Of a stretch of 37,263 nt of DNA, positions 1 through 34,649 are shown piece after piece (position 1 is the stretch's first letter; the number at the start of each line of letters is the position of its first letter). The stretch comes from Novosphingobium sp. (GTDB lineage: Bacteria; Pseudomonadota; Alphaproteobacteria; Sphingomonadales; Sphingomonadaceae): assembly GCA_043732365.1 (NCBI GenBank), contig JAYTHT010000210.1:1-37263 (forward strand). The letters run 5' to 3'. Under the pieces are notes generated by a model that was given only the letters and a program-made list of their open reading frames with translations, was not told where the DNA came from and ran no database searches. Made by a program: the position numbers and the translations under genes.

Positions 1-458
1 TGATCGGCAACCGCTTGTCGCTCCACCACGGCTTGGCGCAACGCGTGTCCAGTGATCTGATTGGTGGCATCGTCAATCGCCGGGCCCATCTGCTGGTCAT
101 AGGCCGCGATCATCCCCGGCGTGGCCAGCCTGGTCTGGCCATTCGCCTGGATTTTCGCCAATTCGTCCAGCGCTTGCGGCTGTGAAGCCACGGCGTCACC
201 GCCGTTCAGGCCAGCGTGCAGATCGACCAGGTTGGTCAGTGCTGCCCTGTCCTGCAAGGCGCGGGCGCGTCCGGCAGTGTCATCGGTGATCGCCTGAATG
301 GCAGAGTGCTGAGCTGAAAATTGGTTCAGAGTTGCACTGCCCAAGGCCAACGCGCGTCCAATGGTACTCCCCAACGGCGATGTCCCGGGCCCCAAAAATC
401 GGGCCTTGTACGCTTCGACCGGGTTCAGCGGTGCGATATAGGTTGGCGCGCGCATCAT
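1..458 (-). CDS. Phage internal virion/ejection protein (5' part only, truncated by the window edge)
   Basis: Not in the ORF track. ATGATG at 458-453 overlaps the upstream TGA. Frame is open to the edge: MMRAPTYIAPLNPVEAYKARFLGPG...DDTAGRARALQDRAALTNLVDLHAGLNGGDAV.... Position after the gp14-like gene suggests a gp15-like ejection protein. Confidence 0.65.
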   Translation of the reverse strand, partial: MMRAPTYIAPLNPVEAYKARFLGPGTSPLGSTIGRALALGSATLNQFSAQHSAIQAITDDTAGRARALQDRAALTNLVDLHAGLNGGDAVASQPQALDELAKIQANGQTRLATPGMIAAYDQQMGPAIDDATNQITGHALRQAVVERQAVAD

Positions 459-1042
459 AGCCCGATCCCCGCCTTGAACGGACCATACTGGCTGGCACCA
501 CCCAGCGCCGTGCTGAATGCGCCGGATCCCGACGAAGTCAATCCGCTGGCCATCCCCCCGCCCATTCCCCCGCCCATTCCCCCGCCCATCCCACCGCTCA
601 TCAAACTGGTGCCCAGATTGACCAGACCACCAACCAACGCGGTCGTGCCCCGATTGTTGGCTGCTGCGGCCTGGCCCAGATCATTTGCGACCGAGATGTC
701 TGATCCCATCAGGTTCTGGTTGCCTTGGGCATAAATGCGCGCCAGATTTTCTTGGCCCAGGATTTGTGTATCCTTCAGTGCATTGGCTGCGGTGCCATAA
801 CCGACCGCGTCGCCATTTGCCGCTGCCGTTAGATTCTGTTCGCCGCTGACCGCTGCCATTTGCCGGTACTGCTGCAACGCGGCGTCGCGCATGTTCTGCT
901 GGCCAATCTGGGCCGCGTTACTTTCTGCAGCGGCATTGGCGTCGGCCGCGGCAGCCTGGGCTTTGGCCTGGCCTATCGCGGAGGCCGTACTGATCCCGGT
1001 GCCGATGGCTCCAAGTCCTGCGGCGATAGCTGGCGCACACAT
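455..1042 (-). CDS. Internal virion protein B-like ejection protein (T7 gp14 positional analogue)
   Basis: MCAPAIAAGLGAIGTGIS N-terminus, Ala/Gly/Gln-rich, ATG in a TGATG overlap with the upstream gene, follows the gp13-like gene. Confidence 0.7.
   Translation of the reverse strand: MCAPAIAAGLGAIGTGISTASAIGQAKAQAAAADANAAAESNAAQIGQQNMRDAALQQYRQMAAVSGEQNLTAAANGDAVGYGTAANALKDTQILGQENLARIYAQGNQNLMGSDISVANDLGQAAAANNRGTTALVGGLVNLGTSLMSGGMGGGMGGGMGGGMASGLTSSGSGAFSTALGGASQYGPFKAGIGL
551..601. repeat. 4x 12-bp imperfect tandem repeat encoding MSGG-MGGG-MGGG-MGGG-M
   Basis: CATCCCCCCGCC / CATTCCCCCGCC / CATTCCCCCGCC / CATCCCACCGCT read directly. Confidence 0.9.
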
Positions 1043-1515
1043 CACATGATCTCCCGGATAAAACGCCGAAACGCGACAGAGCGCATGACGACAGGCTCAT
1101 TTTCCACAGTAAATCCCCAGTGTTCGAGCAAGCGAATCGCCTGCCGATTGTCCGAGGACACAAAATTGCGCAGGCGTGCGCCATGGTGATGCATGGCGGT
1201 GATCATCGCCGGGCCTTGTTCAATCAGCGCGCGGCCATGGCGGGCGACCAGGCCGCTACCTAAAAACCACGGGACAGCATCGCCGCCTGCAACGCTCTCG
1301 ACCACGACTCCGAACATTGCATGGGGTTCACCATCAACCAGCGCTGTCCATGTCTGCGCACTGGCAGCCAGGCCGTGGTGGAGGGCCTGGTTGGCGGTGC
1401 GACCCATCGCTTCGCATTCGATATGATCGATCGGGCGCAAACGACGCGCCAAGCTGGATACATGGCCATAATGGCCCGGTACCAGGCAGACCGACGACGG
1501 GTTCATGCGCGTCAT
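1042..1515 (-). CDS. T7 gp13-like / GNAT-like virion assembly protein
   Basis: LRPIDHIECEA...AMFGV...PWFLGS...LRNFVSSDNRQAIRLLEHWGF pattern typical of podophage gp13-like proteins. ATG at 1515 overlaps the tail B stop (ATGA). Confidence 0.75.
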   Translation of the reverse strand: MTRMNPSSVCLVPGHYGHVSSLARRLRPIDHIECEAMGRTANQALHHGLAASAQTWTALVDGEPHAMFGVVVESVAGGDAVPWFLGSGLVARHGRALIEQGPAMITAMHHHGARLRNFVSSDNRQAIRLLEHWGFTVENEPVVMRSVAFRRFIREIM

Positions 1516-3314
1516 CCGTCGATCACCGGATCGACCGCGACGCCGAGCAGGGTAAAGGGCATCGGCAGTGTCTGATTGATCCACACAGTGCATTCGGTGC
1601 GCACCTTGTTGTCCATCGTGACGATATACGTGCCGTCGAACAGCGCATCGGGATCGTCGGTCGGCAAAGGCCTGATGGGAAACAGATCCGCGCTGCCGAT
1701 CCCGGCATTGATGGGCCCGGTGTCGTGCAAAGTCAGCACCGCCTGCGCCGGGTTCTGCACACGTGCGATGTTTGACCCAGAGCCAGGCACTGTGATCCGC
1801 AACGGCAACGTCTCGACATCCACATCATAAGGTAACCCGAACGACACGTTCGATGCGGTGCCAATCGTGACCGGCAGCGTAACCGCGCCATTGGTTACGG
1901 TCAGCCCGGTGACGGGCACGCCGTCGACCAACCCAGCCACATTCGTACATCCCTCGAGATGCCACAGGCCTGAAAAGCTTGATTGTGGCGTGGTAAAACT
2001 CGCCGACACAGCGCAGTCGAGAAAACAGCATTCGAACGGCGCATCCCACAAATGCGATACCATCCGCTCGACGAGGGTCTGGGTCTGGCCCGCAATCGTC
2101 CGCTTGACCGTCAAATAAACCCGGTCCTCACCATTCTCGGTGATCGAACACACCGACTGGACGGTCCCTGCGGTCTCGCACATCGTCCAGCCCCAGACAT
2201 TCTGTTCCTGTTCCCAGGTAAAGCACAGCAATGCGCCGTCATCGCGCGCCGCCCAGATCAACGACCGGGGTTCCTGGCTGTAACACCACGAAACGATCGT
2301 ATGGCCCTCGAAGAAGTGCGGCGAAAAGATCGTGATATCGTTCGCGCGCAGTCCGTTGATCGCAAAGTCATAACCCAGGCTGCGGATCGAACAGCCAATC
2401 GACGGCACGTAAAAAACGACATTGTCGACCACCAGCGGCGGCAAACGCGCCGAACCGCGACCGACCTGGCGCTGGATCGCTGGCGGAATCGTCCCGTTAA
2501 GCGGTCCGCCACCGACAGTGCCGAGGATATCGAACACGCTGTCGCTGGTCAGCGCCAGCAGCGCCCTGGTCGATGTCAACTGGTTCACCGAATTGACCCG
2601 CCCAGCCATGATGGCAAAGCTCATGCCGTCATCGGCACGCAAGGGCGTCGAATAGTCCATATTCTCGATCAGCCCGGATTTTGAAGTCCAGATACCGTGC
2701 GGTACATTCGTCGATCGTGCCCAAATCGAACGCTGCTGAAACAGCGTTACGGTCGACGGATAATTGCCCGCTGTCGCAAACGGATTGTTGGCCAGCGGCG
2801 GCGCCTGATCATACGACGGACCGATATTGTCATCGATAAAGGTCACGCTCGTCGTCGTGCCAATATAGCCATAAAACTGCGTGTTGTTGGCTTTATAGAC
2901 TTTGTAACGCGTCGCGCCGGAAACCGCTGGCCACGCCAGACTGTTGTAATTACGTTTTAATGTCAGGTCGTTGTACGCGCTCGTAGTCAATGATGCGCGA
3001 CTTTCCTCGGTGGTATTGTCGTTCACCGCGGTGATGCAATATTTGGCCGTTTCGGGAAAAAAGTTCAGACCATTGTTGGCAGAATCCGTATCGGACACGG
3101 TGGCGCTCACACTGCAACTCGCGGGCGCCGCAATCGTCGGCGTGAACTGCACGGTCTGGAACGCCCAACTGGTATTGCTTGCGCGCACCAGCTTGGTGGG
3201 CGGATGGCTAAGATGCGCCAGGTAAAGGGTATCAGCGGTCTGTTCGTAATCGATATCGGCCAATTCGACGCCATTGTAGGGCGAACCGACCACACACACG
3301 CGAGAAGCTCCCAT
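1512..3314 (-). CDS. Tail tubular protein B (nozzle), C-terminal part, 600 aa
   Basis: SPYNGVELADIDYEQTADTLYLAH, YPSTVTLFQQR, YSQEPRSLIWAARDDG, FLDCA and PMPFTLLG motifs. Own RBS (GAAGGA) upstream of ATG 3314. The track start at 3884 gives a nonsense extension. Confidence 0.85.
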   Translation of the reverse strand: MGASRVCVVGSPYNGVELADIDYEQTADTLYLAHLSHPPTKLVRASNTSWAFQTVQFTPTIAAPASCSVSATVSDTDSANNGLNFFPETAKYCITAVNDNTTEESRASLTTSAYNDLTLKRNYNSLAWPAVSGATRYKVYKANNTQFYGYIGTTTSVTFIDDNIGPSYDQAPPLANNPFATAGNYPSTVTLFQQRSIWARSTNVPHGIWTSKSGLIENMDYSTPLRADDGMSFAIMAGRVNSVNQLTSTRALLALTSDSVFDILGTVGGGPLNGTIPPAIQRQVGRGSARLPPLVVDNVVFYVPSIGCSIRSLGYDFAINGLRANDITIFSPHFFEGHTIVSWCYSQEPRSLIWAARDDGALLCFTWEQEQNVWGWTMCETAGTVQSVCSITENGEDRVYLTVKRTIAGQTQTLVERMVSHLWDAPFECCFLDCAVSASFTTPQSSFSGLWHLEGCTNVAGLVDGVPVTGLTVTNGAVTLPVTIGTASNVSFGLPYDVDVETLPLRITVPGSGSNIARVQNPAQAVLTLHDTGPINAGIGSADLFPIRPLPTDDPDALFDGTYIVTMDNKVRTECTVWINQTLPMPFTLLGVAVDPVIDG

Positions 3315-3319
3315 CGGGT

Positions 3320-3964
3320 TCAATCCTTCAAACGATTTTGGCCAAGACCACCACCATACGATACGATCGGCACAGCGACCGTTGTGGCAGGGGGCGGGAC
3401 AGTTGGCACAGGCACAACGATCGGCGGTGACACATTTGCGGTTCCGCCGGTGCAGCCTGAAAAGGCCGGGCAACCGGACGTGTCGGCATTGATCGTCAGC
3501 GTGCTCGCATCGATCACTGCCATGACGGTCCAGGTGCGGTAATTCAGCACGGCGCCCATCCCGCCGGCGGCTCCATCGATATAGATCAGGTCGCCGACCG
3601 CAAAACCGTGAAACGCGATCGTCAATTGCGCATAGGAGGCATTGGCAATCGCGGTAATCGGCTGTGCAGCTTGGAGAATCCTGCCGCCGAGGGCTGATGG
3701 CACCATATAACCCTGGCCCATTTCCAAAATATACGTCTGGGTCAACGAAAATTGGAACGGAATTAACCGGGTTGGCACACTGGCGTTGATCACATTGCCG
3801 ACCAACCGGGTGCCTGGGCGCTTGGTCACGCCGCCGTATTTCATAACAATCACATTGCGCGCCTGACGCAGCGCCGACTGCCACGTGTCGACGTCAAACC
3901 GGCCATAAAGTTCCGGGGCAAGCTCACCCTTGCTGAAATTGACCTGTGGAATGCGCACCGTCAC
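3320..3964 (-). CDS. Tail tubular protein B, N-terminal part (with FCCH-like beta domain)
   Basis: QVNFSKGELAPELYGRFD...NVIVMKYGGVTKRPGT...RLIPFQFS is the usual N-terminus of this family. GTGA overlap with tail A. Confidence 0.85.
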   Translation of the reverse strand: MTVRIPQVNFSKGELAPELYGRFDVDTWQSALRQARNVIVMKYGGVTKRPGTRLVGNVINASVPTRLIPFQFSLTQTYILEMGQGYMVPSALGGRILQAAQPITAIANASYAQLTIAFHGFAVGDLIYIDGAAGGMGAVLNYRTWTVMAVIDASTLTINADTSGCPAFSGCTGGTANVSPPIVVPVPTVPPPATTVAVPIVSYGGGLGQNRLKD

Positions 3965-4602
3965 AAATCGCTCCCAATTCCGGCGCGCGCAAAGGCGGCT
4001 TCACTTATATAGCTGGCCGGTCGTCTGACCCGCTGGTTGTAATCCTCGGCGATTGCGCGCGCGCGGGCGAGTTCGGCGGCCGCGCCGACTTCGCGGGCAA
4101 GGCCGCTGTCCTTGCGGATCGGGATCGCGATGCGCGCTGCCAGTTCCAAGGCAAAAGCCCGCTTCACCAATGGTGGCAGCAATGTCGGATCGGTCAGTGT
4201 CGCGACATAGACCAGCGTTGCGCCGCACACATTGGCATAAATCAGGCCACCTTCATGCAGGAACGCCAGCGGAACGCTATCTTGCACCGGGAAAGGGTAT
4301 GGTCCGCCCTGCGGCAAATGACGGGCATCATCCTGCGCCTGGCGTATCGCCAACGGCCGGGCGCAGTTCGTCGGAACCCTATAGGCATCGGTCCATTCGG
4401 CCGGACGGTCATTGGCAGTTTCGGTCAGCGCGGCCCGCGCCACCGCCCAGCTCCAATCCGACCACAATGACACTTCGGCAAGCAAGGGCGCCGCAAAGCG
4501 GGTCACTTCGCGCGCTTCGATGGAATTGTCGGCCATGTCGGTGATCGGACCGGCGGCAATTTCGGCCAAGGCCATGTTGCAGATGTCGTCAAGCGTTGCC
4601 AT
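3961..4602 (-). CDS. Tail tubular protein A (T7 gp11-like adaptor)
   Basis: MATLDDICNMALAEI...WSWA...AYRVPTNC...LELAARIA pattern. AAAGGG RBS before ATG 4602. Confidence 0.8.
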   Translation of the reverse strand: MATLDDICNMALAEIAAGPITDMADNSIEAREVTRFAAPLLAEVSLWSDWSWAVARAALTETANDRPAEWTDAYRVPTNCARPLAIRQAQDDARHLPQGGPYPFPVQDSVPLAFLHEGGLIYANVCGATLVYVATLTDPTLLPPLVKRAFALELAARIAIPIRKDSGLAREVGAAAELARARAIAEDYNQRVRRPASYISEAAFARAGIGSDL

Positions 4603-4726
4603 GCCGGAATGCCCTTTCGGAAATGCGCGAATGGAGCGACCCGCTTGGGGTTCCACCGCTGGTCATCAGCCGAGACGATGCGGGTTGCCAAACCAGTCGG
4701 CACCCCGCATCCCTCTAACACAACGA

Positions 4727-4903
4727 TCATTTTGTAGGCGGAGCCGATGTGCGCCGTGCAGCTGTAGCCACCTCGGGCGGCGGTGTTTCCATGGGAATCC
4801 ATGCACGCCCAGGAACTTCTTCGCTGGTGAAGATATCGCCTTCCGCAATCAGCCGACACTCATTGCTCAGATAGATCGCTTCACTGGCGCGATAGCTTGG
4901 CAT
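4727..4903 (-). CDS. Small phage protein, 58 aa (below ORF-track cutoff)
   Basis: MPSYRASEAIYLSNECRLIAEGDIFTSEEVPGRAWIPMETPP.... ATG in a TGATG overlap with the cement gene stop; fills the operon gap. Confidence 0.7.
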   Translation of the reverse strand: MPSYRASEAIYLSNECRLIAEGDIFTSEEVPGRAWIPMETPPPEVATAARRTSAPPTK

Positions 4904-5340
4904 CAGATGGCACCGCTGGCGATGTTGGTCTGGCGGCTGGCAACAATCGCTGCGCTGATTGCACCTTGCGTCGCGGTCCCGATAACCGAGTAATACAGGC
5001 GCAGATACCGCGCAGGTGCGTTCTGCACGAGGTTTGGAACGCGGAACAGATATCCCGCAGCGAGTGACGCTGCAGCAATCGGCGCACCGGTGTCGACGCT
5101 CGTCCAGCTCACGTTGTCGGGCGATGTCTGCACCGACACCTGCAACGAAGTAAGGCCTGCAAAAACCTGGCTTACCGAAACCGACAGGTCGAGCCGGTCA
5201 CCCCGGCCGATATCGCGGACGAGTGGGTTCGTGGCCGCAAACGGCGTGCCGGTTGCGCCAAGGTCAATGGTGTTGGTGGATGGTGCCGAAACGGTCACCA
5301 GCTGCTGGTCGCTGAACACAAGCGTAGTGTCGATGATCAT
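4903..5340 (-). CDS. Bbp16-family capsid cement/decoration protein
   Basis: MIIDTTLVFSDQQ...STNTIDLG...RYLRLYYSV...GAISAAIV. AAGGA RBS; follows the MCP. Confidence 0.8.
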   Translation of the reverse strand: MIIDTTLVFSDQQLVTVSAPSTNTIDLGATGTPFAATNPLVRDIGRGDRLDLSVSVSQVFAGLTSLQVSVQTSPDNVSWTSVDTGAPIAAASLAAGYLFRVPNLVQNAPARYLRLYYSVIGTATQGAISAAIVASRQTNIASGAI

Positions 5341-5414
5341 AAAAGAATGTCCTTTTTGAAAGGTGACAGGATCACACGCGCGGCATACGATCCTGTCCAC
5401 CGCAGCAAATTTGG

Positions 5415-6431
5415 TTACGAAACCAGTGTCTCGGTGGTCAGCAGCGCGTCGGATTCGCGCACAGGAATGCCGCGCCAGGTCATCACTTCCTCGCCCTGGA
5501 TTTCCATCGGCGTCAGGCGCACAAAATTGTCGACGCCCGAACGGCTGTTGGTGCCTTCGGCGTCCAGCGCCTCGAGCAGGGTGCGGTTCATATAGATCAC
5601 GCTGCGACCCGGGCTGATCTGCCCTTCGGCTTCGACGCGATACGCACGGCGGCCCTGCAATTTGTAATAAGCGTGCCGCATTAGCGGGTTGAGTGCGACC
5701 GAACCGGCAAGCACACTGGGCACGTCGATATTGCAGACACGCGCGTTGTAACGCCAGTCCTTCACACACAGCCCGACATGCTGGGTGAACTTTTCCTCTT
5801 TGACATAAAACGGATTGCCGTTGCCATCGAGCACCCGCTGGCGGCCCATGTCCTCGCGCTGAATGCCGCCAGGGATGTGGTCGGGTACGACAATCGATGT
5901 TTGCGCGTCGCCGTGCGTGACAAACCAGATCGAGGTGTTGTTCGAACTTGTCGCGCCGGCGCTGACCACGTTGGGGTTCTGCAACGAATTGAAACGCGGC
6001 CCCATGCCGTGGAACTGTTTCCCGTTCACTTTGACATCGGAATACCAGATCGCGCTTTCAATGGTCTGGGCGATGGCTTCGAGAAAGCCCTGGCCTTCGA
6101 CCAGGCGCAGCTTGGCCGCTTCGGCTGGCTTGAGGTTGAGCAGGCGTTCATCGACGCTCGACAGGCCTTCGACAAAACCGGTGGTGTCTTTGACTTCGGT
6201 GTAATTGCCCTTGGATTGCGCAATACCCTGGTACAGCGCGCCCCACGAAACCGAAGGCAGGCCGGTGCGGATCGATGAACGGTGTTCGGTCCCGCTGTTG
6301 CAGTTGATGACGTTGGCATCTTTCATGAACGGCGTCAGCTGAGTCAGCGCTTCGACCACATCGCCGATGCCGTCGCTGCTGGATTTCAGAACGTCGATCA
6401 GGTTCCAGTACGTGCTGCCAAGAATGGCCAT
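5415..6431 (-). CDS. Major capsid protein (BPP-1/epsilon15-like)
   Basis: 338 aa with HRSSIRTGLPSVSW, NTSIWFV, GLCVKDWRYNARVCNID and WRGIPVRESDAL motifs. TAAGGAG RBS. Confidence 0.9.
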   Translation of the reverse strand: MAILGSTYWNLIDVLKSSSDGIGDVVEALTQLTPFMKDANVINCNSGTEHRSSIRTGLPSVSWGALYQGIAQSKGNYTEVKDTTGFVEGLSSVDERLLNLKPAEAAKLRLVEGQGFLEAIAQTIESAIWYSDVKVNGKQFHGMGPRFNSLQNPNVVSAGATSSNNTSIWFVTHGDAQTSIVVPDHIPGGIQREDMGRQRVLDGNGNPFYVKEEKFTQHVGLCVKDWRYNARVCNIDVPSVLAGSVALNPLMRHAYYKLQGRRAYRVEAEGQISPGRSVIYMNRTLLEALDAEGTNSRSGVDNFVRLTPMEIQGEEVMTWRGIPVRESDALLTTETLVS

Positions 6432-6433
6432 GC

Positions 6434-6520
6434 TTAGGTCTCCTTAGGGAATTCCCGCAAGACTGCGGGGACGGATGGCGCCGGCAAATGCGGGGGTAGA
6501 GGGCGCGATGCGGCCGGCAT
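6434..6520 (-). CDS. Putative 28-aa leader ORF upstream of the capsid gene
   Basis: AAGGAG, 6 nt, ATG, then MPAASRPLPPHLPAPSVPAVLREFPKET*. Stop lies 2 nt before the MCP ATG. Confidence 0.3.
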   Translation of the reverse strand: MPAASRPLPPHLPAPSVPAVLREFPKET

Positions 6521-6535
6521 CGTTCGCTCCTTGGG

Positions 6536-6576
6536 GCGTCGGTGCGCCCGCCTTGATCAGGCAGGCGCGCCGACGC
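6536..6576. other. Long GC-rich hairpin between scaffold and capsid genes
   Basis: GCGTCGGTGCGCC-C-GCCT-TGATC-AGGC-A-GGCGCGCCGACGC, about 17-bp stem with one mismatch; no U tract. Confidence 0.6.
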
Positions 6577-6612
6577 GTAATTTCAAATCAGCGTTGGGAT
6601 ACCTGAGGCGTG

Positions 6613-7314
6613 TCAGTGCCCATCGTCGGGATAAAGCCGTTCCCAGACCGGCCGCGTACGGTTGCTGGCGGTCATCGGACGGACAAGTCCGCCATCTTCA
6701 CCCACCAGTTCGCCCAGACGGCGGAACGCGCGGATCATATCGGGGTGATTGCCAAATCCACTGGCGTTCAGCGCATTGCGAAACGGATGCCCGTCGCCAT
6801 AACCCAACGCATCGAGTGCCTTTGCGGCAAAGTGCTCGGTCTCACCTCGCCGCGCGCCACCAATTTCGGGGTCAACCAGAAAGGCGTCGTACCATTCCTT
6901 TTTCTGGACGGCAGCAGCATCCTCGATCTGGCGCACCAGACTTTCCTGCGTGCGCGCCATGATATCGCGCGCCACCGGCATCAGCTTGTTGGCATCGTCG
7001 TTACTCAGCCCCAGATCGCGCAGCACGGGATCGGCGTTCCGCACCAGCGTCGGATCGATCGAAAACCCTTCGAGAGCGAGCGTGTAGCGATCGGGTACGA
7101 CAGGGGCAAAAGACGGGGTTTGCGATACGTCCACCATCAGCGTCGATGCGGTCGGTGGCAAAACGGTAGGCGCGGGTACGGTCGGCGTGCTGCCAGCGGC
7201 CAAAACCGTTGGCTGGTCCTGCACCGGCACAGCGGCGACATTCACCGGTGCGGGGCTAACCGGTATGGGGGAGCTCGTCATAACGGGCAACGTCGCGGGA
7301 ACGGCTTCGGTCAC
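6613..7314 (-). CDS. Capsid scaffolding protein
   Basis: Pro/Ala-rich N-terminus, PDRYTL, LGLSNDDANKL, DPEIGG, GFGNHPDMIRAF and terminal RLYP. Lies just upstream of the MCP; AAGGA RBS before GTG. Confidence 0.75.
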   Translation of the reverse strand: MTEAVPATLPVMTSSPIPVSPAPVNVAAVPVQDQPTVLAAGSTPTVPAPTVLPPTASTLMVDVSQTPSFAPVVPDRYTLALEGFSIDPTLVRNADPVLRDLGLSNDDANKLMPVARDIMARTQESLVRQIEDAAAVQKKEWYDAFLVDPEIGGARRGETEHFAAKALDALGYGDGHPFRNALNASGFGNHPDMIRAFRRLGELVGEDGGLVRPMTASNRTRPVWERLYPDDGH

Positions 7315-7600
7315 TTTGGCTTTCCTTGCAATTGAGCGCCTCTGTCAGGCATTGGCCAAGCGTTGTGATCCCGTCGGGATCACTGTGCCGCACGGCCTCG
7401 CTTTGGCCGGCGTGCACCATCATCAGCATGTCGAAACCTAGGGCCCGGCGGCCTTCGAGATGGCCCAGATCACGGGTGCCTGCGCTGCTGGCAGAAACGG
7501 TTTGCACCAGAATTCCCGAACTTTGGATCGCAACAAACAAAAACCGGCGAAATTCTGGCTGCGTCAGCAGGAACTCGGCATCTTTCGCTTCGAATGTCAT
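7256..7600 (-). CDS. Bbp19-like conserved phage protein
   Basis: LLTQPEFRRFLF...SGI...EGRRALG pattern; position right after the portal. Confidence 0.65.
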   Translation of the reverse strand: MTFEAKDAEFLLTQPEFRRFLFVAIQSSGILVQTVSASSAGTRDLGHLEGRRALGFDMLMMVHAGQSEAVRHSDPDGITTLGQCLTEALNCKESQSDRSRSRDVARYDELPHTG

Positions 7601-7673
7601 GCGCAAACCCCCAAAAATCATCTGCCGGTGCTGACTTCGAAACGCGCTCGTTCGCGAGTTTCGTCGCAGCGTC

Positions 7674-9341
7674 TCAGGCGGGCGGCAACAACCGCGCCAA
7701 CAGGCTGTCGCCATTCCCCACGTCTGTCGCGGCAAGCAGTCGCGCTGCATCGGCGCCGGCTTTCATCGCGGGCATCGCCGCCAAAGTCTGGGCCGTGGCC
7801 GCTTGCTCGGTACGCGCCTTGCGCAGCGCAGCGACTTCGCGCGCAGGGCGGATCAAACGAGCCGGCGCCCCCGCGCGATAGCCATATTCATCAACGGCCT
7901 CGTCAAAGTCGATTTTGTCCAGCGCATCGGGATGAACCGCAGCCAGGTTCCCGACAAAACCGACCACGCGCTCAATCTGGCCGAGCCCGACCATCCGCTG
8001 CATCTGCTGCAGGATCGACACGAATTCGACATTGAGCTGTTTGTCCGACAGTGCGGCCGGAACCGGCGGTAGAAACCCGCCCCGGCGCAAAATGCCAAAT
8101 GCGCGCTCGATTGCAACTTGCAGCTTTTCATTGGCGACACGCTCGATCACGGGGCCCAACTGGGTCAGCTTTTCCTCATTGCGTGCGGCGATTTCCTCGA
8201 CCGTGCGCGGCTGGATCCCGGCCATATTGGTGATCGCGTTGAACAGATCGGCAAACGCCAGGGAATCAATCTGTTGCCGGCACTTGTCCATTTCCTGGCC
8301 GATTGCGGCGACCGCCTGATACGGCATCTGATACGGGATAAATATCTGATCGCGGTCAACGCCGGTCGCAACCACCACGCGCCCCGGTTCCCCGGTCAGG
8401 CGCACATTGGGCGGCGCGATTTTTTCGGGTTTGACCATCTGGTCGATCGCTTCATTTCGGCGCTTGGCCTGCATCTGCAATTCGCGCAAACTGGGCAACG
8501 CCTCCATGCCTGGCGAAACACCATACGTATCGCCGCCGACAACGTCCCAGCGCGGCGCCCAGAACGGTTGTTCGCTATACCCTGACAGGCGCAGCAAAGT
8601 GTCCGACCGATCGCACGGATCCCAATAAATCGATCGCCACGGCTTGGCGCCAAACTTCATCGGATCGTAATTCGGATCGGGCTCGATCGCGTGATAAATC
8701 TCGATCGGCAGTTCGTACTGGCTGCGATCGTACAGCCCGCGGATAACCGGAGAACAGGCATCGCCAAACGTCTCGATCGCCTGCTTCACACTCATCGGGC
8801 ACACCCGGTACAGTGTGTCGGGGACCAGCGCGTCGGACAGCCCGATCCAGTATTCGCCAAAAGTCAGCGCGTGGCACACGGCGCCTGCGACTGGATGCTC
8901 GACCATCACGCACGCTTCGGTGCCGAACAGCCCCATCTCGCCATAGCCCGATTTGGCCGCAGCATAAAAATTGATCGACCCGAAAAAGGCATACAGTCGC
9001 CGTTCCACATCCGACAGCCAGGCGCGCACGCCATTGGCCTCCATCATCGCTGCATCGGCCAGGTTCAGCGTGAACCAGGGCCGCGATGCGCTCGACAGCC
9101 CGCTGGTCATGCCATTGGTCAACGTGCGAAACGCCTCGATCCCATGCGGATCGAACAGTGTCTTGTTCCACATCCGGCGGCGTCCACCGTTCTGGTCTTT
9201 ACTGCCGCGCAGAAACCGCGATCGCGCCGGCTGCGCAAACCGCGCAATCTGCTCGGTCTCTGACTCGTAATCGGTGCGTACGGATTTCATCAGCGCCAGC
9301 CGCGCTTCGCAGTGGCTGCGGATATCTGCGTTTGCGGTCAT
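7674..9341 (-). CDS. Portal (head-tail connector) protein, 555 aa
   Basis: GMTSGLSSASRPWFTL, GLFGT, PRWDVVGGDTYGVSPG and TVEEIAARNEEKLTQLGPVIER motifs. GAGGAG RBS. Confidence 0.92.
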   Translation of the reverse strand: MTANADIRSHCEARLALMKSVRTDYESETEQIARFAQPARSRFLRGSKDQNGGRRRMWNKTLFDPHGIEAFRTLTNGMTSGLSSASRPWFTLNLADAAMMEANGVRAWLSDVERRLYAFFGSINFYAAAKSGYGEMGLFGTEACVMVEHPVAGAVCHALTFGEYWIGLSDALVPDTLYRVCPMSVKQAIETFGDACSPVIRGLYDRSQYELPIEIYHAIEPDPNYDPMKFGAKPWRSIYWDPCDRSDTLLRLSGYSEQPFWAPRWDVVGGDTYGVSPGMEALPSLRELQMQAKRRNEAIDQMVKPEKIAPPNVRLTGEPGRVVVATGVDRDQIFIPYQMPYQAVAAIGQEMDKCRQQIDSLAFADLFNAITNMAGIQPRTVEEIAARNEEKLTQLGPVIERVANEKLQVAIERAFGILRRGGFLPPVPAALSDKQLNVEFVSILQQMQRMVGLGQIERVVGFVGNLAAVHPDALDKIDFDEAVDEYGYRAGAPARLIRPAREVAALRKARTEQAATAQTLAAMPAMKAGADAARLLAATDVGNGDSLLARLLPPA

Positions 9342-9354
9342 TCGATTGCGCTCC

Positions 9355-9537
9355 TCAACCCAGCGTGGGCTTGGCGACGCTCGGTGATCCGAGCACGCCT
9401 TGTGGCCCTGTGACCATGCCGGCCAGAACGGTTCGTTGCCAAGCTTCGGGATCAACGGGTCCTGCAGGCGCACCCTGATCGGGCAATTGTACTGGTTGTC
9501 GAACCGGAATTGTCGGGATCGTCGGGGTGCTGCACAT
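9355..9537 (-). CDS. Small virion protein, 60 aa (MC-start, precedes portal)
   Basis: MCSTPTIP...TGPQGV...KPTLG. AGGAGG RBS; typical position before the portal. Confidence 0.7.
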   Translation of the reverse strand: MCSTPTIPTIPVRQPVQLPDQGAPAGPVDPEAWQRTVLAGMVTGPQGVLGSPSVAKPTLG

Positions 9538-9645
9538 CGTCGCCTCCTGTGGTTGACGATTTCTGCCTAGACGCGTGGCGAACCGGTTTGGATCGCGACA
9601 CGGCCGATTTTTCGACTTTGCGAAACGAAGTTTCGGGTCAGCCAC

Positions 9646-11160
9646 TCAGTCCAGCTCGGTATATCGATCGTCGTCACGCATCGCCGCTACCCGATCGGGA
9701 TCGAGCCAGTTCGGCACGCTGCGCGGCAACACAACCTCGGCAAAAGTACAGGCAAGTGCATCGGCCCAGTCGGGGCTGGGCAGGCCACGCCGCTTCATAT
9801 CGACTTTGCGTTCCAGGCGCACCCGCGTGTCATCGGCCGCAAAACCATACGTCGGCCCGGCCAGATCATCGCGCAATCTCGGCACGTCCGGAATGGCCCC
9901 GCGCCGCAACCAGGCGCGCATCCGCGTCCAGATTTCGGCCCGCTTGTTCGCGGTGTGCACCGCAATTCCGGGCTCCAGCTCGGCATCGCGGCCCTGACCG
10001 CCAAACCAGACTTCGATTACTGGCACGTCGCCGACCAGTTGGCGCAACCGGTCAACAATGGCGGCGCCGATATTGCCGGCATCGACCATGATCGCATCGG
10101 GTTGCCAGCGTTGCGCGGCGACCGCGATGTCCCCTGCCAATTGCATCGCATCGGTGGCGCGCCACGACTGCCAGGCCCGCGATCGCGCGTCATTGCCGCA
10201 ACGGATCGCCAACACACTTTCATCATCGCCATACCGGGCGCAATCGACGCCAAACACGACCGGCTCGCCGCCTGCCATGACCGGAATGGCGCGCGTCAAG
10301 GCTCCTTCAATATCCCGCTGGCCAATGAATTGCATATCGCTGGACGACGGAAACTGACCGCGTACGCGCACCCGGGCGACATTCGAATCCTCGCCAAATG
10401 TGCGCACCAGCTCATCGAGATAGGCCTTATTGGTGCCCTCGACATCGCGCGCATCGATCTGCGCCGTGTGCCACAGCGCACGATGGCGACCAAAACATTC
10501 GCGAAACGCACCGCTGGCATGCGTTGGATTACCAAATGCCAGCCAGATAATTTCAGTATCGGCATCGGTCAGCGCGCCCAGCGCAACTTCCCACACTTTG
10601 TCGGCAATGCCGGACGCCTCATCGAACACGAGCATGATCCGCTTGCCCTGGTTATGCAGCCCGGCAAACGCCTCGGTGTTGTTCTCGCTCCAGGTTACAA
10701 GATCGCAACGCCATGATTTTTCGCGCCCCGCCATCGTCGAATTCATAGCCGTCGCGCTTTGGCGAAACCACGCCGATGTCAGCGACAGCCGTGACCATTT
10801 GCCCAATTCAGGCGCCGTTTTGGTGCGCAACTGCGCCTCGGTGTTGGCGGTTATAATCACCCGGGTATCGGGGCACGTGTCGAGCGCCCACTTGGTCAAC
10901 ATCGCGATCAGCGCCGACTTGCCAATCCCGTGGCCCGACGCGCGGGCGATCCGCAACGGCTGAAACCGCCGCGCCGGATCGGATAAATGCTCGTGGATTT
11001 CCGCCATGACCGCTTGCTGCCAGTCGCGTGGCCCGGTCATGCCCGCCAAATCGCTTTCGCCCCACGCAAACGCATAATGGGCATACCCCAGTGGATCGGC
11101 CGTAAACGCGCCAATGTCATCTGCCAGCGTCAGCACCGGATCGGTCGCGGCACTATCCAT
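9646..11160 (-). CDS. terL: Terminase large subunit
   Basis: Walker A ASGHGIGKS, Walker B LVFDEAS, coupling FGNPT, nuclease GVDCARYGDD and SPDWADAL. ATG 11160 overlaps the upstream stop by 8 nt. Confidence 0.93.
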   Translation of the reverse strand: MDSAATDPVLTLADDIGAFTADPLGYAHYAFAWGESDLAGMTGPRDWQQAVMAEIHEHLSDPARRFQPLRIARASGHGIGKSALIAMLTKWALDTCPDTRVIITANTEAQLRTKTAPELGKWSRLSLTSAWFRQSATAMNSTMAGREKSWRCDLVTWSENNTEAFAGLHNQGKRIMLVFDEASGIADKVWEVALGALTDADTEIIWLAFGNPTHASGAFRECFGRHRALWHTAQIDARDVEGTNKAYLDELVRTFGEDSNVARVRVRGQFPSSSDMQFIGQRDIEGALTRAIPVMAGGEPVVFGVDCARYGDDESVLAIRCGNDARSRAWQSWRATDAMQLAGDIAVAAQRWQPDAIMVDAGNIGAAIVDRLRQLVGDVPVIEVWFGGQGRDAELEPGIAVHTANKRAEIWTRMRAWLRRGAIPDVPRLRDDLAGPTYGFAADDTRVRLERKVDMKRRGLPSPDWADALACTFAEVVLPRSVPNWLDPDRVAAMRDDDRYTELD

Positions 11161-11578
11161 CTGCGGGCGTAGTTTTTGGGTCCGTTGCGCCATCGGTTTT
11201 GCCAGCTTTCCCATGTGTTGCATCGCGGTGTCGATGCACGCGCAGACGGGCACGTTGGATCGCGGCTACCGCATCTCCAGCGCTCGAAAATTCAAAATCC
11301 TGGCGCGGTTTTCCCCACGCGCGATCAAGCACGGCATTGGCCGCACTGACGCGAGCGGTAGCGGGCGCATCGCTATTGCCCATGATCGCAACCAGCGTCG
11401 CCAGCGCATCGCCGGTATGCGCACGCGCCATCGCCGCATCGCCGCGACCTTGACTTGGTAAAGGTCGCGGCGTCGGTGGCAGAGCTGCGGTTTTGCACGG
11501 TCGCGGTGTGGCAGCAGCTGTGGTCGGAGCACGCTTGGGCGCGACTGCGGGTTTACCCGCCGGTTCAGCGCGCGGCAT
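11153..11578 (-). CDS. Terminase small subunit-like protein
   Basis: ARAHTGDALATLVAIM...ARVSAANAVLDRAWGKPRQ helical core, immediately upstream of terL. Start uncertain. Confidence 0.65.
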   Translation of the reverse strand: MPRAEPAGKPAVAPKRAPTTAAATPRPCKTAALPPTPRPLPSQGRGDAAMARAHTGDALATLVAIMGNSDAPATARVSAANAVLDRAWGKPRQDFEFSSAGDAVAAIQRARLRVHRHRDATHGKAGKTDGATDPKTTPADG

Positions 11579-12005
11579 AAGGCTTGCGATCACTTGGCAA
11601 ACCCATGGCGGATGCGGACCGCGCGCCGCGCCGCACCAACGGCCGGTCAGCATGCATCGACGGATGGCGTGCAGTCCGCTTGCCGGTCGCCACGATTTCG
11701 ACCAGACGAAACCGCTGAAACCGGCTAACCCGGATCAGGCCCCGGCTTTCCAGTTTGCGCACCAATTTTGGCCCCATAGAGCTTGAATTGAACCCGGCTG
11801 CGACCTCGATATCGATATTGACCGGGCAGGGACGCCCGGTTTCGGCGGCGTGGTTGATCAATTGATAGGCGATCCGTTCCGCCGTGCCGAGTTCATCGGC
11901 ATGGACGTGGGGCGGCATGGGCAGGATGACTTGGCCGCATGCGGCTTCGTCGTCCCAGAACGCGTCGAGACAATCGCTTGCCTGCTTCATGGGGGCCTGT
12001 TTCAT
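11565..12005 (-). CDS. Winged-helix DNA-binding protein resembling a LexA N-terminal domain (no peptidase domain)
   Basis: ERIAYQLINHAAETGRPCPVNIDIEVAAGFNSSSMGPKLVRKLESRGLIRV parallels the LexA DBD pattern. GGAG RBS before ATG 12005. Confidence 0.65.
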   Translation of the reverse strand: MKQAPMKQASDCLDAFWDDEAACGQVILPMPPHVHADELGTAERIAYQLINHAAETGRPCPVNIDIEVAAGFNSSSMGPKLVRKLESRGLIRVSRFQRFRLVEIVATGKRTARHPSMHADRPLVRRGARSASAMGLPSDRKPYAAR

Positions 12006-12243
12006 AAACGGTGCAATCTCCCAAATGTGGCGCTTGGTCTGGTAAGGGGGCAAAAGGCGGTGGGGCGCCACGATGACACACCCACCGCCAGGGTTTGCAA
12101 ACGCCGCTGGGGGACGCGCTCGTTCGCATATGCAGCCGGGCCGGCGATCGATTTGCCAGCGTCGCCACCGTCACTCACCAGGGGGCGCCTTGTGGGGAAG
12201 GGGGCGACTCGGTGGTCTGGACTGCATGAGAACGAGCTATCGC

Positions 12244-12321
12244 ATAATCTGATTATCCGATATATAAATCGATACGAAAATGGATACAATTCGCTTTTCA
12301 GATTAACCTTAATCTGATAAT
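12244..12321. promoter_or_regulatory. Putative repressor operators
   Basis: Palindromes ATAATC-T-GATTAT (12244-12256) and TCAGATTAA-CC-TTAATCTGA (12298-12317) share the core TAATCTGA. Confidence 0.65.
12261..12289 (-). promoter_or_regulatory. Putative sigma70 promoter for the phage operon
   Basis: TTGTAT-N17-TATATA on the minus strand in an AT-rich gap. Confidence 0.5.
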
Positions 12322-12354
12322 GCAATGAAACACATTTCCAACAGGGGCCGCTCA

Positions 12355-13017
12355 ATGCGCGCTTTCGATGCCATTCTCGTGCGCCAGGCTATGAAGGCGC
12401 GCTCAATCAGCCAGTCCGATCTGGCCCATGCGCTTGGCTTTACCAGCCAATCTGCGGTGTCTGCGCTGCTCGCAGGAAAGCGCCGTGTCACAGTCGATGA
12501 AGCTGCGGCGATTTATGATTTGCTCGGGCTGGGCGGGTCTGTGCAGGCCACACCGTCGTCAGCCTTTACATTTTCGTCGTTTGAACCGGCTTCTGCGCGT
12601 CTTCGCGAATCCGTTATTGCTGATGACGCGCGCGATTACGGCATTGTTCCGGTCATCGGCATCGCCGGTGCAGGGCGCTGGCGCGAAGCGGTCGAAGTGC
12701 CGCTGGGGCATATGCCCGTCCCTGGCCGCATGGCCGGGCGTGGCGTATTCGGCATAGAAGTCAACGGCGATTCGATGGATCAATTGATTGAAGACGGCGG
12801 CTTGATCCTGGTCGATCCGGGTCAAAAAGAATTGTTCCCCGGCGGCGTTTATCTGATTGCCAACAGCGGCGGCGAAGCGACGGTCAAACGGTACCGCCGC
12901 GAACCCGCTCGTTTCGAACCCTGTTCCAGCAATCCGATGCACCAGTCCTTCTTGATCAGCGACGATGATTTTTCGGTTCTTGGCAAAGTCGTGTGGAAAA
13001 GCGCACCAGTTGCCTGA
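12355..13017 (+). CDS. CI/LexA-type repressor (Cro/C1 HTH + S24 peptidase)
   Basis: SQSDLAHALGFTSQSAVSALLAGKRR HTH, Ala-Gly site (IAGAG), GDSM Ser and TVKR Lys. Alternative start at 12325. Confidence 0.9.
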   Translation: MRAFDAILVRQAMKARSISQSDLAHALGFTSQSAVSALLAGKRRVTVDEAAAIYDLLGLGGSVQATPSSAFTFSSFEPASARLRESVIADDARDYGIVPVIGIAGAGRWREAVEVPLGHMPVPGRMAGRGVFGIEVNGDSMDQLIEDGGLILVDPGQKELFPGGVYLIANSGGEATVKRYRREPARFEPCSSNPMHQSFLISDDDFSVLGKVVWKSAPVA

Positions 13018-13106
13018 CTGCGATCGAGCCCAAACAGACGCGATTGAAATAATCTGAATTTCGGATATTTCTTGTGGTGATTTGCTACAAGAGAGATATC
13101 AGATCC

Positions 13107-13487
13107 ATGCTGCCCCCATTGTTGTCCTATCCTTGCCGCAATTGGCATCAGTCATCGCCCGCACGCGCTTTGCTTGACCAACTGGCCCCGACTGATCTGC
13201 GCCTGGCTTTGGCTCGCGGCTGCCCTGGCCCTGATGGCCTCGTCTGGTACCCTGCCGGCCAATTTGGTGCTGCGACCTTCGAAGCGCTGGGGGTATTGCG
13301 TGAAACGGCGATAGGCCCGGCATTTGCGATGGCCCGCGACGATTACGCCCGCGCCGCCGCGCTGGCCGTGGCGCAACGCGCGCCCAGCGTGGTAGGCGCG
13401 ATCGCAGCGCGTTTCGGTGATCCGGATCGGTGGCTTGGCTATGACGTGATCGATGCGACCCGTCGTTTCCGCGCAAATTACCAGTAA
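13107..13487 (+). CDS. Hypothetical protein
   Basis: 126-aa ORF filling the gap. Preceded by TTGAAA and a copy of the operator core ATAATCTGA (13049-13057). Confidence 0.5.
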   Translation: MLPPLLSYPCRNWHQSSPARALLDQLAPTDLRLALARGCPGPDGLVWYPAGQFGAATFEALGVLRETAIGPAFAMARDDYARAAALAVAQRAPSVVGAIAARFGDPDRWLGYDVIDATRRFRANYQ

Positions 13488-13570
13488 TTTACGCGGTCAA
13501 AGGAGTGATTTAAGTGGTCAAAGGAGCGATTTACACGATCAATGCATTGATTTACCGGATCAAAGGAAAG
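13487..13570. repeat. 4x 21-bp imperfect tandem repeat
   Basis: ATTTACGCGGTCAAAGGAGTG / ATTTAAGTGGTCAAAGGAGCG / ATTTACACGATCAATGCATTG / ATTTACCGGATCAAAGGAAAG. Confidence 0.85.
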
Positions 13571-14012
13571 TCCGCGCCAGACCGATAATGCCCATCAGAA
13601 CCAGCGCCCCCCCGATGCGCCTGCGCCAGTTCCGCGCCCGGTGTGTCGCGCCCCGCCGACGTGGTTTTGGCCTGATCAGTTTGCCAGGGCCCCGTCCATT
13701 GAATGTCAGTGTGCCGCAGATAATCAGGATGCCGCTGATCACCGCGACGATGATTGGACCAACGCTCGTCGGATCGGATATAGGATGCGGTGCGCAAAGT
13801 GGAGAGACCGGCGCGTGGACGCGTGCGCTGACATGACCGCATTCGTCGTCAACACGCGCTAGTGGCGCACGTTCGATCACCTGGCCCGCCATATCACGCT
13901 GTACGATGTGAACCGCTGGCTGGGTCGCGCCAGCCAATGGGGTGCCATCTGAGACCGCTCTATCCGGGCTTGGTGGCGCAGTCGCGGTTTGGGTTTCCAC
14001 AGGACTTTGCAT
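13560..14012 (-). CDS. Hypothetical membrane protein (two predicted TM segments)
   Basis: Hydrophobic stretches VGPIIVAVISGILIICGTLTF and IGGALVLMGIIGLA flank a basic loop. Confidence 0.5.
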   Translation of the reverse strand: MQSPVETQTATAPPSPDRAVSDGTPLAGATQPAVHIVQRDMAGQVIERAPLARVDDECGHVSARVHAPVSPLCAPHPISDPTSVGPIIVAVISGILIICGTLTFNGRGPGKLIRPKPRRRGATHRARNWRRRIGGALVLMGIIGLARTFL

Positions 14013-14254
14013 CGCTCGGCGGTCTCATTTGGGCAAGGCGGGGAATGAAGACGCATCTTGATGAAGCGGCCGATAGCACGCAATCGCGCTGTGCAAGTGC
14101 ACAATGTCCAACTGGGACGAGTCAACCCGGGAAGGGGGTGAACCGGGACGGGTCGAGTTGGGATCATCATGCCGGGCGATGTTAACCTTGCGCAATGCTA
14201 TCCGCCCGCAGCGAACTGGCATTTGTCACGCGTCTGGCGTAGCTACCGGCGGTC

Positions 14255-34604: not shown

Positions 34605-34649
34605 TCGGCCCACGCAAGATAGAATTTGCAACGCACCGGAGAGAAAACC

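What the first reader, a model, noticed from the sequence alone, without database searches (positions are those of the whole stretch)
1..13487. Streamlined podovirus-type particle operon wired directly to an autocleaving repressor: candidate new gene transfer agent / domesticated phage
Seen: a packaging-head-tail-ejection operon with no visible disabling lesions, strong RBSs and ATGA/TGATG coupling. Only one wHTH gene separates terS from the repressor. On the other side of the repressor are two hypotheticals and then host genes. Known: temperate phages normally carry cro, replication and late-control genes between repressor and terminase, with recombination and integrase genes beyond the repressor. 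The typical alphaproteobacterial RcGTA is siphovirus-like. Inference: this looks like a replication-less, possibly immobile, inducible particle factory that might package host DNA. Alternatives are a recently deleted prophage, or early genes lying beyond the left edge.
Basis: partly seen in the sequence, partly recalled or inferred. Interest (0 to 1): 0.85.

Follow-up and report, generated by a model that had tools for sequence, protein, structure and literature searches.

The report
Tamed podovirus particle locus in Novosphingobium
A 23-kb set of short-tailed-phage head, tail, DNA-packaging and lysis genes, with its own repressor but no replication or integration genes, sits intact at one chromosomal spot in eight related Novosphingobium genomes that have lost the genus's usual gene-transfer-agent-like cluster, so it is likely a host-owned particle system that would package host DNA when the cell is stressed, though no particle or gene transfer has been shown.

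Summary
Observation confirmed. Window 1-13487 plus 9.25 kb on a second contig (joined by one 23,394-bp public contig) form a 22.7-kb BPP-1-type podovirus module: repressor, wHTH, TerS, TerL, head, tail, lysis. It has no integrase, replication genes or att repeat. Eight genomes of one Novosphingobium clade carry it between the same flanks, stop-free, with dN/dS 0.08-0.35 and a tree broadly matching the host's. It is domesticated, not a recently deleted prophage.

Compared with full prophage relatives it has lost the 2,000-aa third ejection protein, the M23 catalytic motifs of the second, and the TerS N-terminal motif. The genus's RcGTA-like cluster is cleanly deleted in this clade, and also in a second clade that fixed a different podovirus module. 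That suggests replacement, but rests on only two events.

Best reading: a DNA-damage-inducible GTA-like particle that delivers host DNA to the periplasm (0.45). Rivals are a PBSX-like killer particle (0.25) and a lysis or decoy device (0.15). No particle was shown.

The scan noted similar tamed podovirus clusters in other taxa, none matching this sequence. FpGTA is a published podovirus-like precedent.

The parts
1..458 (-). 5' part of second ejection protein ej1 (about 609 aa, gp15-like by gene position; continues on own contig C121); its M23 domain lacks both metal-binding motifs
   Evidence: join shown
455..1042 (-). internal virion protein, T7 gp14-like by size and position (predicted outer-membrane pore)
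   Evidence: phrog_418 E 1e-16; role from PMC8954989 passages
1042..1515 (-). T7 gp13-like internal virion protein
   Evidence: phrog_308 E 7e-29; weak PF11090 hit
1512..3314 (-). tail nozzle (tubular B), C-terminal ORF
   Evidence: phrog_376 E 1e-131
3320..3964 (-). tail nozzle, N-terminal ORF (split shared with most full prophage relatives)
   Evidence: ortholog hits phrog_376 positions 4-107
3961..4602 (-). tail tubular A / adaptor
   Evidence: phrog_394 E 4e-36
4727..4903 (-). conserved 58-aa ORF coupled to Bbp16
   Evidence: dN/dS 0.21
4903..5340 (-). Bbp16 capsid cement protein
   Evidence: PF21190 E 2e-21
5415..6431 (-). major capsid protein, BPP-1/epsilon15 GP7 type
   Evidence: PF20911 E 2e-107; dN/dS 0.075
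6613..7314 (-). scaffold protein by position (PHROG label 'protease')
   Evidence: phrog_458 E 1e-33
7256..7600 (-). Bbp19-like small head gene
   Evidence: ortholog weak PF25181 hit
7674..9341 (-). portal
   Evidence: PF12236 E 6e-136; dN/dS 0.079
9355..9537 (-). conserved 60-aa ORF before the portal
9646..11160 (-). terminase large subunit with intact ATPase and nuclease motifs
   Evidence: phrog_2 E 5e-40; dN/dS 0.098
11153..11578 (-). terminase small subunit: near-invariant helical core; N-terminal DUF5681-type motif replaced by a length-variable P/A/R-rich linker
   Evidence: core dN/dS 0.09
11565..12005 (-). winged-helix protein; homologs precede TerS in the full prophage relatives and in both fixed elements; likely late regulator
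   Evidence: MarR/LexA-like fold, no hit at E<=1e-3
12056..12089 (-). conserved 14-bp leader hairpin followed by a U-rich run, upstream of wHTH; possible attenuator
   Evidence: 13 of 14 pairs kept in all 14 sequences; only 1 pair with a two-sided change
12247..12261 (.). operator-like palindrome ATCYGA-N3-TCRGAT (1 mismatch) before the repressor
12298..12317 (.). perfect inverted repeat of the same half-site upstream of the repressor
   Evidence: sequence
12355..13017 (+). CI/LexA-type repressor (HTH + S24) with Ala-Gly site, catalytic Ser and Lys motifs in 8 of 8 clade copies
13052..13066 (.). perfect operator-like palindrome; the only perfect copy in the 3.13-Mb assembly
13074..13487 (+). 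conserved orphan ORF behind the second operator, in the position of a first early gene
   Evidence: 10 homologs at 57-98% identity, no family; no Atlas hit; dN/dS 0.22
14342..15424 (+). AI-2E family transporter: host gene marking the repressor-side flank

Best explanation
This is a former temperate podovirus that a Novosphingobium clade inherits with its chromosome and keeps under purifying selection, and it likely works as a DNA-damage-inducible gene transfer agent whose particles would carry host DNA only as far as a recipient's periplasm. Shown: fixed locus, intact genes, no integrase, replication genes or att pair, loss of the third ejection protein and of the M23 catalytic motifs, a degenerate TerS N-terminus, and clean deletion of the RcGTA-like cluster. 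Inferred steps: (1) the repressor binds the palindromes on both sides of its gene; (2) activated RecA triggers its self-cleavage; (3) the orphan early gene and the wHTH protein switch on the operon past the leader hairpin; (4) TerS without its N-terminal motif lets TerL start headful packaging at many chromosomal sites of an unreplicated genome; (5) holin, GH108 endolysin and spanin-like genes lyse the cell; (6) variable tail spikes bind kin, the gp14-like protein opens the outer membrane and DNA enters the periplasm; (7) host ComEC imports it, as for RcGTA. Confidence is about 0.92 for domestication and 0.45 for the gene-transfer function.
For: Same layout and flanks (AI-2E on one side; intron-bearing tRNA-Leu, LOV-LuxR, folE on the other) in G000, G392, G127, G128, G061, G332, G334 and G337; G127, G334 and G337 are split over contigs. 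7 of 8 genomes in the 100%-supported host clade carry it (G337 is not in that tree). The element is monophyletic with matching sub-groups such as (G000,G392),G127. dN/dS 0.075-0.35 over 22 element genes with dS 0.7-1.6, versus host genes 0.05-0.15 with dS 0.75-1.9; no stops in structural genes. No homolog of a related full prophage's integrase, replication, large ejection or fibre genes in G000. Depth is flat across element and flanks in 5 DNA runs. 17 of 55 IMG/VR portal hits are >=88% identical; none shows extra early genes and none is on a contig over 22.2 kb. [quoted passage not shown] HK97 capsid absent in 14 of 14 clade A+B genomes and G000, present in 10 of 11 neighbours. The neighbours' cluster is RcGTA-like and its site is empty in G000, 5 of 5 clade A and 4 of 4 clade B genomes tested. 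RcGTA delivers to the periplasm and uses competence proteins (PMC7296036); a ComEC domain is in 5 of 5 genomes tested.
Against: No particle, packaged DNA or transfer has been observed. Podovirus ejection proteins are required for infectivity (PMC8954989); here the third is missing in 8 of 8 copies and the M23 motifs are lost in 5 of 5 aligned, whereas RcGTA keeps a virion peptidase. TerS N-terminal loss is not specific: 60 of 150 homologs have short N-termini and 19 of 90 long ones lack the motif, and DNA binding by that motif is not established. The second fixed element (B) keeps a different, full-length TerS. RcGTA loss is common: 65 of 185 near-complete genus genomes lack the hub gene, the coincidence rests on two events, and G274 lacks both systems as assembled. 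The GafA/GafZ domain was found in 1 of 10 genomes and not in two that keep the RcGTA-like cluster, so that cluster may not be a working GTA. The cheaper-amino-acid bias is clear only in TerL (4.84 vs 4.94 carbons per residue), not in portal or capsid. Element-host distance correlation in clade A is weak (rho 0.62, 68 of 720 permutations). Capsid and scaffold are the same size as in 47-kb prophages, so a particle could probably hold the whole element, unlike classical GTAs.
Confidence: 0.45

Rival explanations
1. PBSX-like killer particle: induced by DNA damage, it packs host DNA as ballast, does not deliver it, and kills related strains by binding through its variable spikes and opening the outer membrane with the gp14-like protein.
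For: It lacks the inner-membrane ejection protein and an active virion peptidase. Tail-appendage genes belong to at least four unrelated groups among seven genomes while the core is conserved. PBSX packages 13.4-kb host fragments, does not inject them and acts as a tailocin (PMC12946183). The repressor, few-regulators, head-tail-lysis layout resembles PBSX (recalled).
Against: No podovirus-derived killer particle was met in the papers read. The packaging motor and head are under the strongest constraint, which a pure killer need not keep. Loss of the RcGTA-like cluster is not explained.
Confidence: 0.25
2. Stress-triggered lysis or decoy device: selection keeps the locus because a sub-population bursts to release DNA, vesicles or non-infectious capsids that help the biofilm or block incoming podoviruses; gene transfer is incidental.
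For: A lysis cassette is kept in all copies whose end was seen, and G274 shows only a lysis end, with a different endolysin, at the site. Related full prophages circulate in the genus.
Against: Lysis genes are less constrained (0.23-0.35) than capsid, portal and TerL (0.08-0.10). Lysis alone would not need 15 intact virion genes.
Confidence: 0.15
3. Helper-dependent relic: the element borrows replication and ejection proteins from co-infecting BPP-1-type phages and is maintained as a satellite or as an immunity module.
For: Full prophages of the same family coexist with fixed elements in G030, G072 and G334. The repressor is intact.
Against: No integrase, origin module or att pair; vertical tree; no amplification in 5 runs; the operator motif does not flank the repressor in the full prophage loci scanned; most carriers have no helper.
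Confidence: 0.1
4. Recently deleted or decaying prophage, or early genes lying beyond the contig edge.
For: The own assembly is in 677 contigs and 93.7% complete; G274 lacks most of the element.
Against: The left part is assembled and joined. Four relatives carry it on single contigs with both flanks. dS is near 1 with dN/dS near 0.1 and no stops.
Confidence: 0.03

Closest known systems
BPP-1 / epsilon15 / BcepC6B-type temperate podoviruses, and their full prophages in Novosphingobium (e.g. G030:C1 about 2.127-2.174 Mb)
   Same: GP7 capsid, Bbp16, portal, tail tubular A/B, gp13/gp14-like proteins, same gene order; 60-81% identity of the main structural proteins to the nearest full prophage; best isolated-phage capsid hit 52%.
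   Different: No integrase, recombination, replication or cro-region genes, no att pair, no 1,850-2,290-aa third ejection protein (present in 9 of 9 full prophages whose region was fetched), dead M23, different tail appendages, fixed locus.
FpGTA of Faecalibacterium prausnitzii (PMC12946183)
   Same: Domesticated, podovirus-like particle genes conserved across a host group; TerS without an obvious DNA-binding domain; delivery unproven there too.
   Different: Gram-positive host, two operons, about 9-kb fragments shown. This element is one locus with its own cleavable repressor in a Gram-negative host; sequence kinship was not tested.
RcGTA / CcGTA (Rhodogtaviriformidae)
   Same: No replication genes, vertical inheritance, TerS N-terminal loss, proposed periplasmic delivery with ComEC uptake.
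   Different: Unrelated virion lineage (short-tailed GP7 type versus HK97/siphovirus type); own repressor rather than host GafA control; probably a much larger head; the true RcGTA-like cluster of the genus is deleted in these genomes.
PBSX of Bacillus subtilis
   Same: Fixed defective phage with its own repressor, inducible by mitomycin C, packages host DNA (repressor Xre from a reference title).
   Different: Long contractile tail (recalled), Gram-positive host; killing is shown for PBSX and untested here.
Dd1 GTA of Desulfovibrio desulfuricans
   Same: TerS lacks a detectable DNA-binding domain; short-tailed morphology and BPP-1 kinship are recalled only.
   Different: Not compared by sequence; searches gave no passage that I read confirming the recalled kinship.

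Membership tests
Gene transfer agent (functional class) | No replication or integration genes of its own | tested here: met
Gene transfer agent (functional class) | Vertical inheritance at a fixed locus under purifying selection | tested here: met
   distance test weak for clade A
Gene transfer agent (functional class) | [quoted passage not shown] | tested here: inconclusive
   DUF5681-type motif lost in 18 of 18 copies, but such loss is common among homologs and the motif's role is unproven
Gene transfer agent (functional class) | Particles package random host DNA without preference for their own genes | not testable with these tools
   needs induction and sequencing of protected DNA
Gene transfer agent (functional class) | Packaged DNA is shorter than the encoding gene set | tested here: inconclusive
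   capsid and scaffold lengths equal those of a 47-kb prophage, so capacity likely exceeds the 22.7-kb element; head size not measurable here
Gene transfer agent (functional class) | DNA is delivered to and recombined in recipients | not testable with these tools
   ComEC domain present; ejection apparatus reduced
RcGTA family (Rhodogtaviriformidae) | HK97-type capsid and g12-g15 baseplate genes | tested here: not met
RcGTA family (Rhodogtaviriformidae) | GafA/GafZ-type activator (DUF6456) | tested here: not met
   0 of 7 carriers tested
Active BPP-1-type temperate prophage | Integrase and att repeats | tested here: not met
   (control prophage has a 46-bp tRNA repeat)
Active BPP-1-type temperate prophage | Replication and recombination genes beside the repressor | tested here: not met
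Active BPP-1-type temperate prophage | Three ejection proteins | tested here: not met
   third missing in 8 of 8 copies; not found elsewhere in G000 or in 4 of 5 relatives, with only a 120-aa domain hit in the fifth
Active BPP-1-type temperate prophage | GP7 capsid, Bbp16, portal, tail A/B module | tested here: met
PBSX-like defective phage bacteriocin | Own cleavable repressor and no replication module | tested here: met
PBSX-like defective phage bacteriocin | Particles kill related strains without injecting DNA | not testable with these tools
   needs a killing assay

The most novel reading that the evidence does not exclude
Gene transfer agents can be swapped out: twice within one genus, a lineage deleted its ancestral RcGTA-like cluster and tamed a circulating podovirus in its place, each time discarding the inner-membrane ejection protein so that the particle hands DNA to the host's competence machinery. 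With near-intact ancestral prophages and cultured strains at hand, this would be GTA birth by non-orthologous replacement caught in the act.
Probability: 0.3. Interest if true: 0.88.

Novelty: new variant of a known kind. Interest (0 to 1): 0.7.

Why it matters
How GTAs arise and whether hosts need them are open questions, because the known GTAs are ancient and far from their phage ancestors. Here the tamed element sits beside full prophages whose main structural proteins are 60-80% identical, so the losses can be listed: integrase, replication, att, the third ejection protein, the peptidase active site and the TerS N-terminal motif. The coincidence with deletion of the RcGTA-like cluster in two clades makes a sharp, testable prediction of functional replacement. 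Named cultured strains carry each element (N. acidiphilum DSM 19966, L014; N. capsulatum NBRC 12533, L025/L027), and the self-cleaving repressor suggests a simple mitomycin C experiment. Such loci are also filed as viruses in IMG/VR (17 contigs).

Tried and rejected
Early genes beyond the left edge: rejected. Split nozzle gene as a lesion: rejected, since most full prophage relatives share it. Missing ejection or fibre genes placed elsewhere in the genome, as for RcGTA: not found with these queries.

GTA_TIM PF13547 as an RcGTA marker: 0 of 37 genomes, including cluster carriers, so it is uninformative here; the hub protein was used instead. GafA/GafZ control: DUF6456 in 1 of 10 genomes. Alphaproteobacterial LexA box (pattern recalled) in 11500-14300: none. 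Sigma-70 promoter scan: 0 sites, and the conserved hairpin was not called by the terminator scan. att remnant: the best match is 13 of 14 bp at window 14139-14152, E 0.35, at chance level.

Expression: two metatranscriptome contig sets (X19, X20) cover 27 and 28 of 30 bins over element and host genes alike, at 90-99% identity; they cannot show transcription.

Structures: p188 (C121) is a hairpin-helix-jelly-roll with no PDB hit at E<=1e-3 and one viral hit of unknown function. wHTH gave only weak MarR/LexA-type hits. The large ejection protein has no solved relative, and ej1 hits only M23 domains, so gp15/gp16 names rest on gene order. The orphan ORF has no Atlas hit.

Single origin of elements A and B: the tree is unresolved (support 69); independent origin is preferred because loci, TerS family and endolysin family differ and the host clades are not sisters. 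The tree left out 3 of 26 rows (one long branch, two gappy). Literature searches found no report of this element.
Full report
Observation. The window is the whole of contig C210 of a 3.13-Mb, 677-contig assembly. Pfam and PHROG scans confirm a minus-strand operon of the BPP-1/epsilon15 podovirus type: TerL, portal (PF12236), scaffold, GP7 capsid (PF20911), Bbp16, tail tubular A and B, and internal virion proteins. A divergent HTH+S24 repressor follows, then host genes from AI-2E onward. One winged-helix ORF separates TerS from the repressor. Named records with 90-98% capsid identity are Novosphingobium or unassigned Sphingomonadales.

The missing left part. Proteins from relatives located it on own contig C121:1-9250: the rest of ej1, a 187-aa jelly-roll protein, variable spike-like genes, holin, GH108 endolysin and a spanin-like gene. 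After these come a tRNA-Leu(UAA) with a group I intron and the host genes LOV-LuxR, folE, purA and hisZ. In public run X3 one 23,394-bp contig covers C121:1-9468 and window 1-13949, so the element is about 22.7 kb. No homolog of the integrase, phage replication or recombination genes, the 2,248-aa ejection protein or the tail fibre of a related full prophage exists in the assembly (its SSB and a methylase gave hits on other contigs). Four integrase-family hits lie on other contigs. The tRNA 3' end faces the element but has no duplicate at the other end, while the control prophage has a 46-bp tRNA-Val repeat at both ends. Depth over the element is close to that of the flanks in X3 (176 vs 137-195), X10, X1, X5 and X11; these runs may include the source of the window.

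Distribution. The capsid is found in 23 of 376 genus genomes and 12 of 401 sampled from the order. Eight carry this layout between the same flanks: G000, G392, G127, G128, G061, G332, G334 and G337. Six carry a second reduced element, B. Eight others carry full prophages and one has only a weak hit; G030, G072 and G334 also hold a full prophage. A purA+rpoB tree of 29 genomes, chosen by purA similarity and capsid presence, puts seven of the eight A carriers and G274 in one clade with 100% support (G337 had no usable marker). G274 shows only a lysis end at a contig start and no capsid, TerL or ej1; loss and mis-binning cannot be told apart. Element trees make A and B each monophyletic, with sub-groups that match the host. 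The distance correlation is weak for A (rho 0.62, 68 of 720 permutations) and strong for B (0.91, 1 of 720). dN/dS is 0.075-0.35 over 22 A genes at dS 0.7-1.6, similar in depth to 8 neighbouring host genes, with no stops in structural genes (the two stops counted in one small lysis gene were not inspected). Of 55 IMG/VR portal hits, 17 are at least 88% identical; 11 of these show the repressor-wHTH-TerS-TerL junction, none shows extra early genes, and the longest contig is 22,136 bp.

What was lost. All nine full prophages whose region was fetched have a 1,850-2,290-aa gene after ej1 (one is cut at 971 aa by a contig end); all eight A copies go straight to the 187-aa gene. By the gene-order rule in PMC8954989 (passages) this is the gp16-like inner-membrane component; no structural proof was obtained. 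ej1 is about 100 aa shorter, and its M23 domain lacks the metal-binding motifs in 5 of 5 aligned A copies, while two full prophages keep the HxH motif. TerS keeps a near-invariant helical core, but its N-terminus is a variable P/A/R-rich linker in 18 of 18 copies, whereas a full phage with the same TerS family begins with the DUF5681 motif. Among 150 homologs, 71 of 90 with long N-termini have such a motif and 60 have short N-termini, so this sign is suggestive only. Loss of the TerS DNA-binding domain is a proposed GTA hallmark (PMC11841831, PMC6854486; passages).

Control region. The repressor keeps the Ala-Gly, Ser and Lys motifs in 8 of 8 copies. The palindrome ATCYGA-N3-TCRGAT lies on both sides of the repressor gene in the window and in 8 further loci; 3 more loci show it on one side, and one scanned locus lacked the region. 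With up to one mismatch it occurs 20 times in 3.13 Mb, and perfectly once, so it is element-specific. A 14-bp hairpin with a U-rich tail precedes wHTH in 14 of 14 aligned sequences, but only one pair shows a two-sided change. I infer a minimal lambda-like cascade (repressor, early orphan gene, attenuator, late regulator); CcGTA also uses anti-termination (PMC11150451, title and start of abstract only).

RcGTA-like cluster. No HK97 capsid was found in G000 or in 14 of 14 clade A+B genomes, against 10 of 11 neighbours. The neighbours' cluster matches TIGR02215, TIGR02217, TIGR02218 and the megatron model. Its two flanking genes are adjacent in G000, in 5 of 5 clade A and in 4 of 4 clade B genomes tested, and separated by the cluster in G006 and G187. 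The hub gene is in 120 of 185 genomes at least 98% complete; six of eight full-prophage carriers keep it. Shakya et al. place RcGTA-like clusters in the ancestor of Sphingomonadales (PMC5721377, two passages). So gain and loss map to the same branch twice, but 35% of the genus lacks the cluster anyway, and its activator domain is missing even in two keepers.

Element B. It runs wHTH-TerS-TerL...gp14-like-fibre-lysis between DUF4440/HD-GYP and glyoxalase genes, with no repressor, ej1 or third ejection protein; dN/dS is 0.08-0.38. The six best matches to its flank among 376 genomes are exactly the six carriers.

Mechanism. RcGTA ejects DNA into the periplasm and relies on competence proteins (PMC7296036, passages); a ComEC domain is present in 5 of 5 genomes tested. 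A podovirus stripped of its inner-membrane channel fits that route, which is my best reading (0.45). The same anatomy fits a PBSX-like particle that never injects (PMC12946183, passages), especially as the spike-like genes fall into at least four unrelated groups among seven genomes.

Novelty. Searches found no paper on this element; PMC12486242 and PMC8987985 (passages) add nothing specific. Supplementary tables of GTA surveys were not read and could list these loci. FpGTA is a published podovirus-like GTA-like element. This scan has noted tamed podovirus clusters in other taxa, none by sequence likeness to this one. The element is a new variant of the domesticated-phage kind, not a member of the RcGTA family and not an active prophage. 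Its special value is the recent origin, the apparent double replacement and the cultured strains.

Noticed in passing
L004:8376 to L005:5672 (G030:C1 about 420.4-437.7 kb); also L017, L019, L020, L025/L027, L050/L051: A second, likely independently fixed podovirus module (element B) in 6 of 6 genomes of another clade, lacking the repressor and both large ejection proteins, under purifying selection.
   Followed up: partly
L046:9302-9623 (own contig C121, minus strand): tRNA-Leu(UAA) with a group I intron (RF00028) abutting the element's lysis end in 9 of 9 clade A genomes; absent beside the LOV gene in 12 other genomes checked.
   Followed up: partly
own contig C182:1550-1899; L254-L261, L263: Empty site of the RcGTA-like cluster: its flanking genes are about 350-450 bp apart.
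   Followed up: yes
L046:9698-10288: LOV(PAS)-LuxR light-sensor-type regulator next to the element; any regulatory link is untested.
   Followed up: no
L046:1521-2084 and 5308-6171: Two genes share an N-terminal module; the 187-aa protein has 46 full-length homologs at 54-97% identity and a jelly-roll C-terminus, possibly a spike adaptor.
   Followed up: partly
L096:131-2118 (G274:C25): A lysis end with a different endolysin and holin next to the same tRNA, at a contig start; the rest of the element was not found.
   Followed up: partly
L024 (Croceibacterium xixiisoli): Head-only remnant: portal to Bbp16 without terminase or tail nearby.
   Followed up: no
L052:12832: Prophage in G074 with a truncated TerL and no portal in the fetched region.
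   Followed up: no
window 33459-36918: PhyR and HWE-kinase general stress response genes 20 kb from the element, with Dps/ferritin-like and PRC-barrel genes nearby; ordinary host cluster.
   Followed up: no
window 13560-14012: Second hypothetical ORF is only partly conserved; several relatives have a CHASE4-GGDEF-EAL gene in this interval, so it is probably outside the element.
   Followed up: partly
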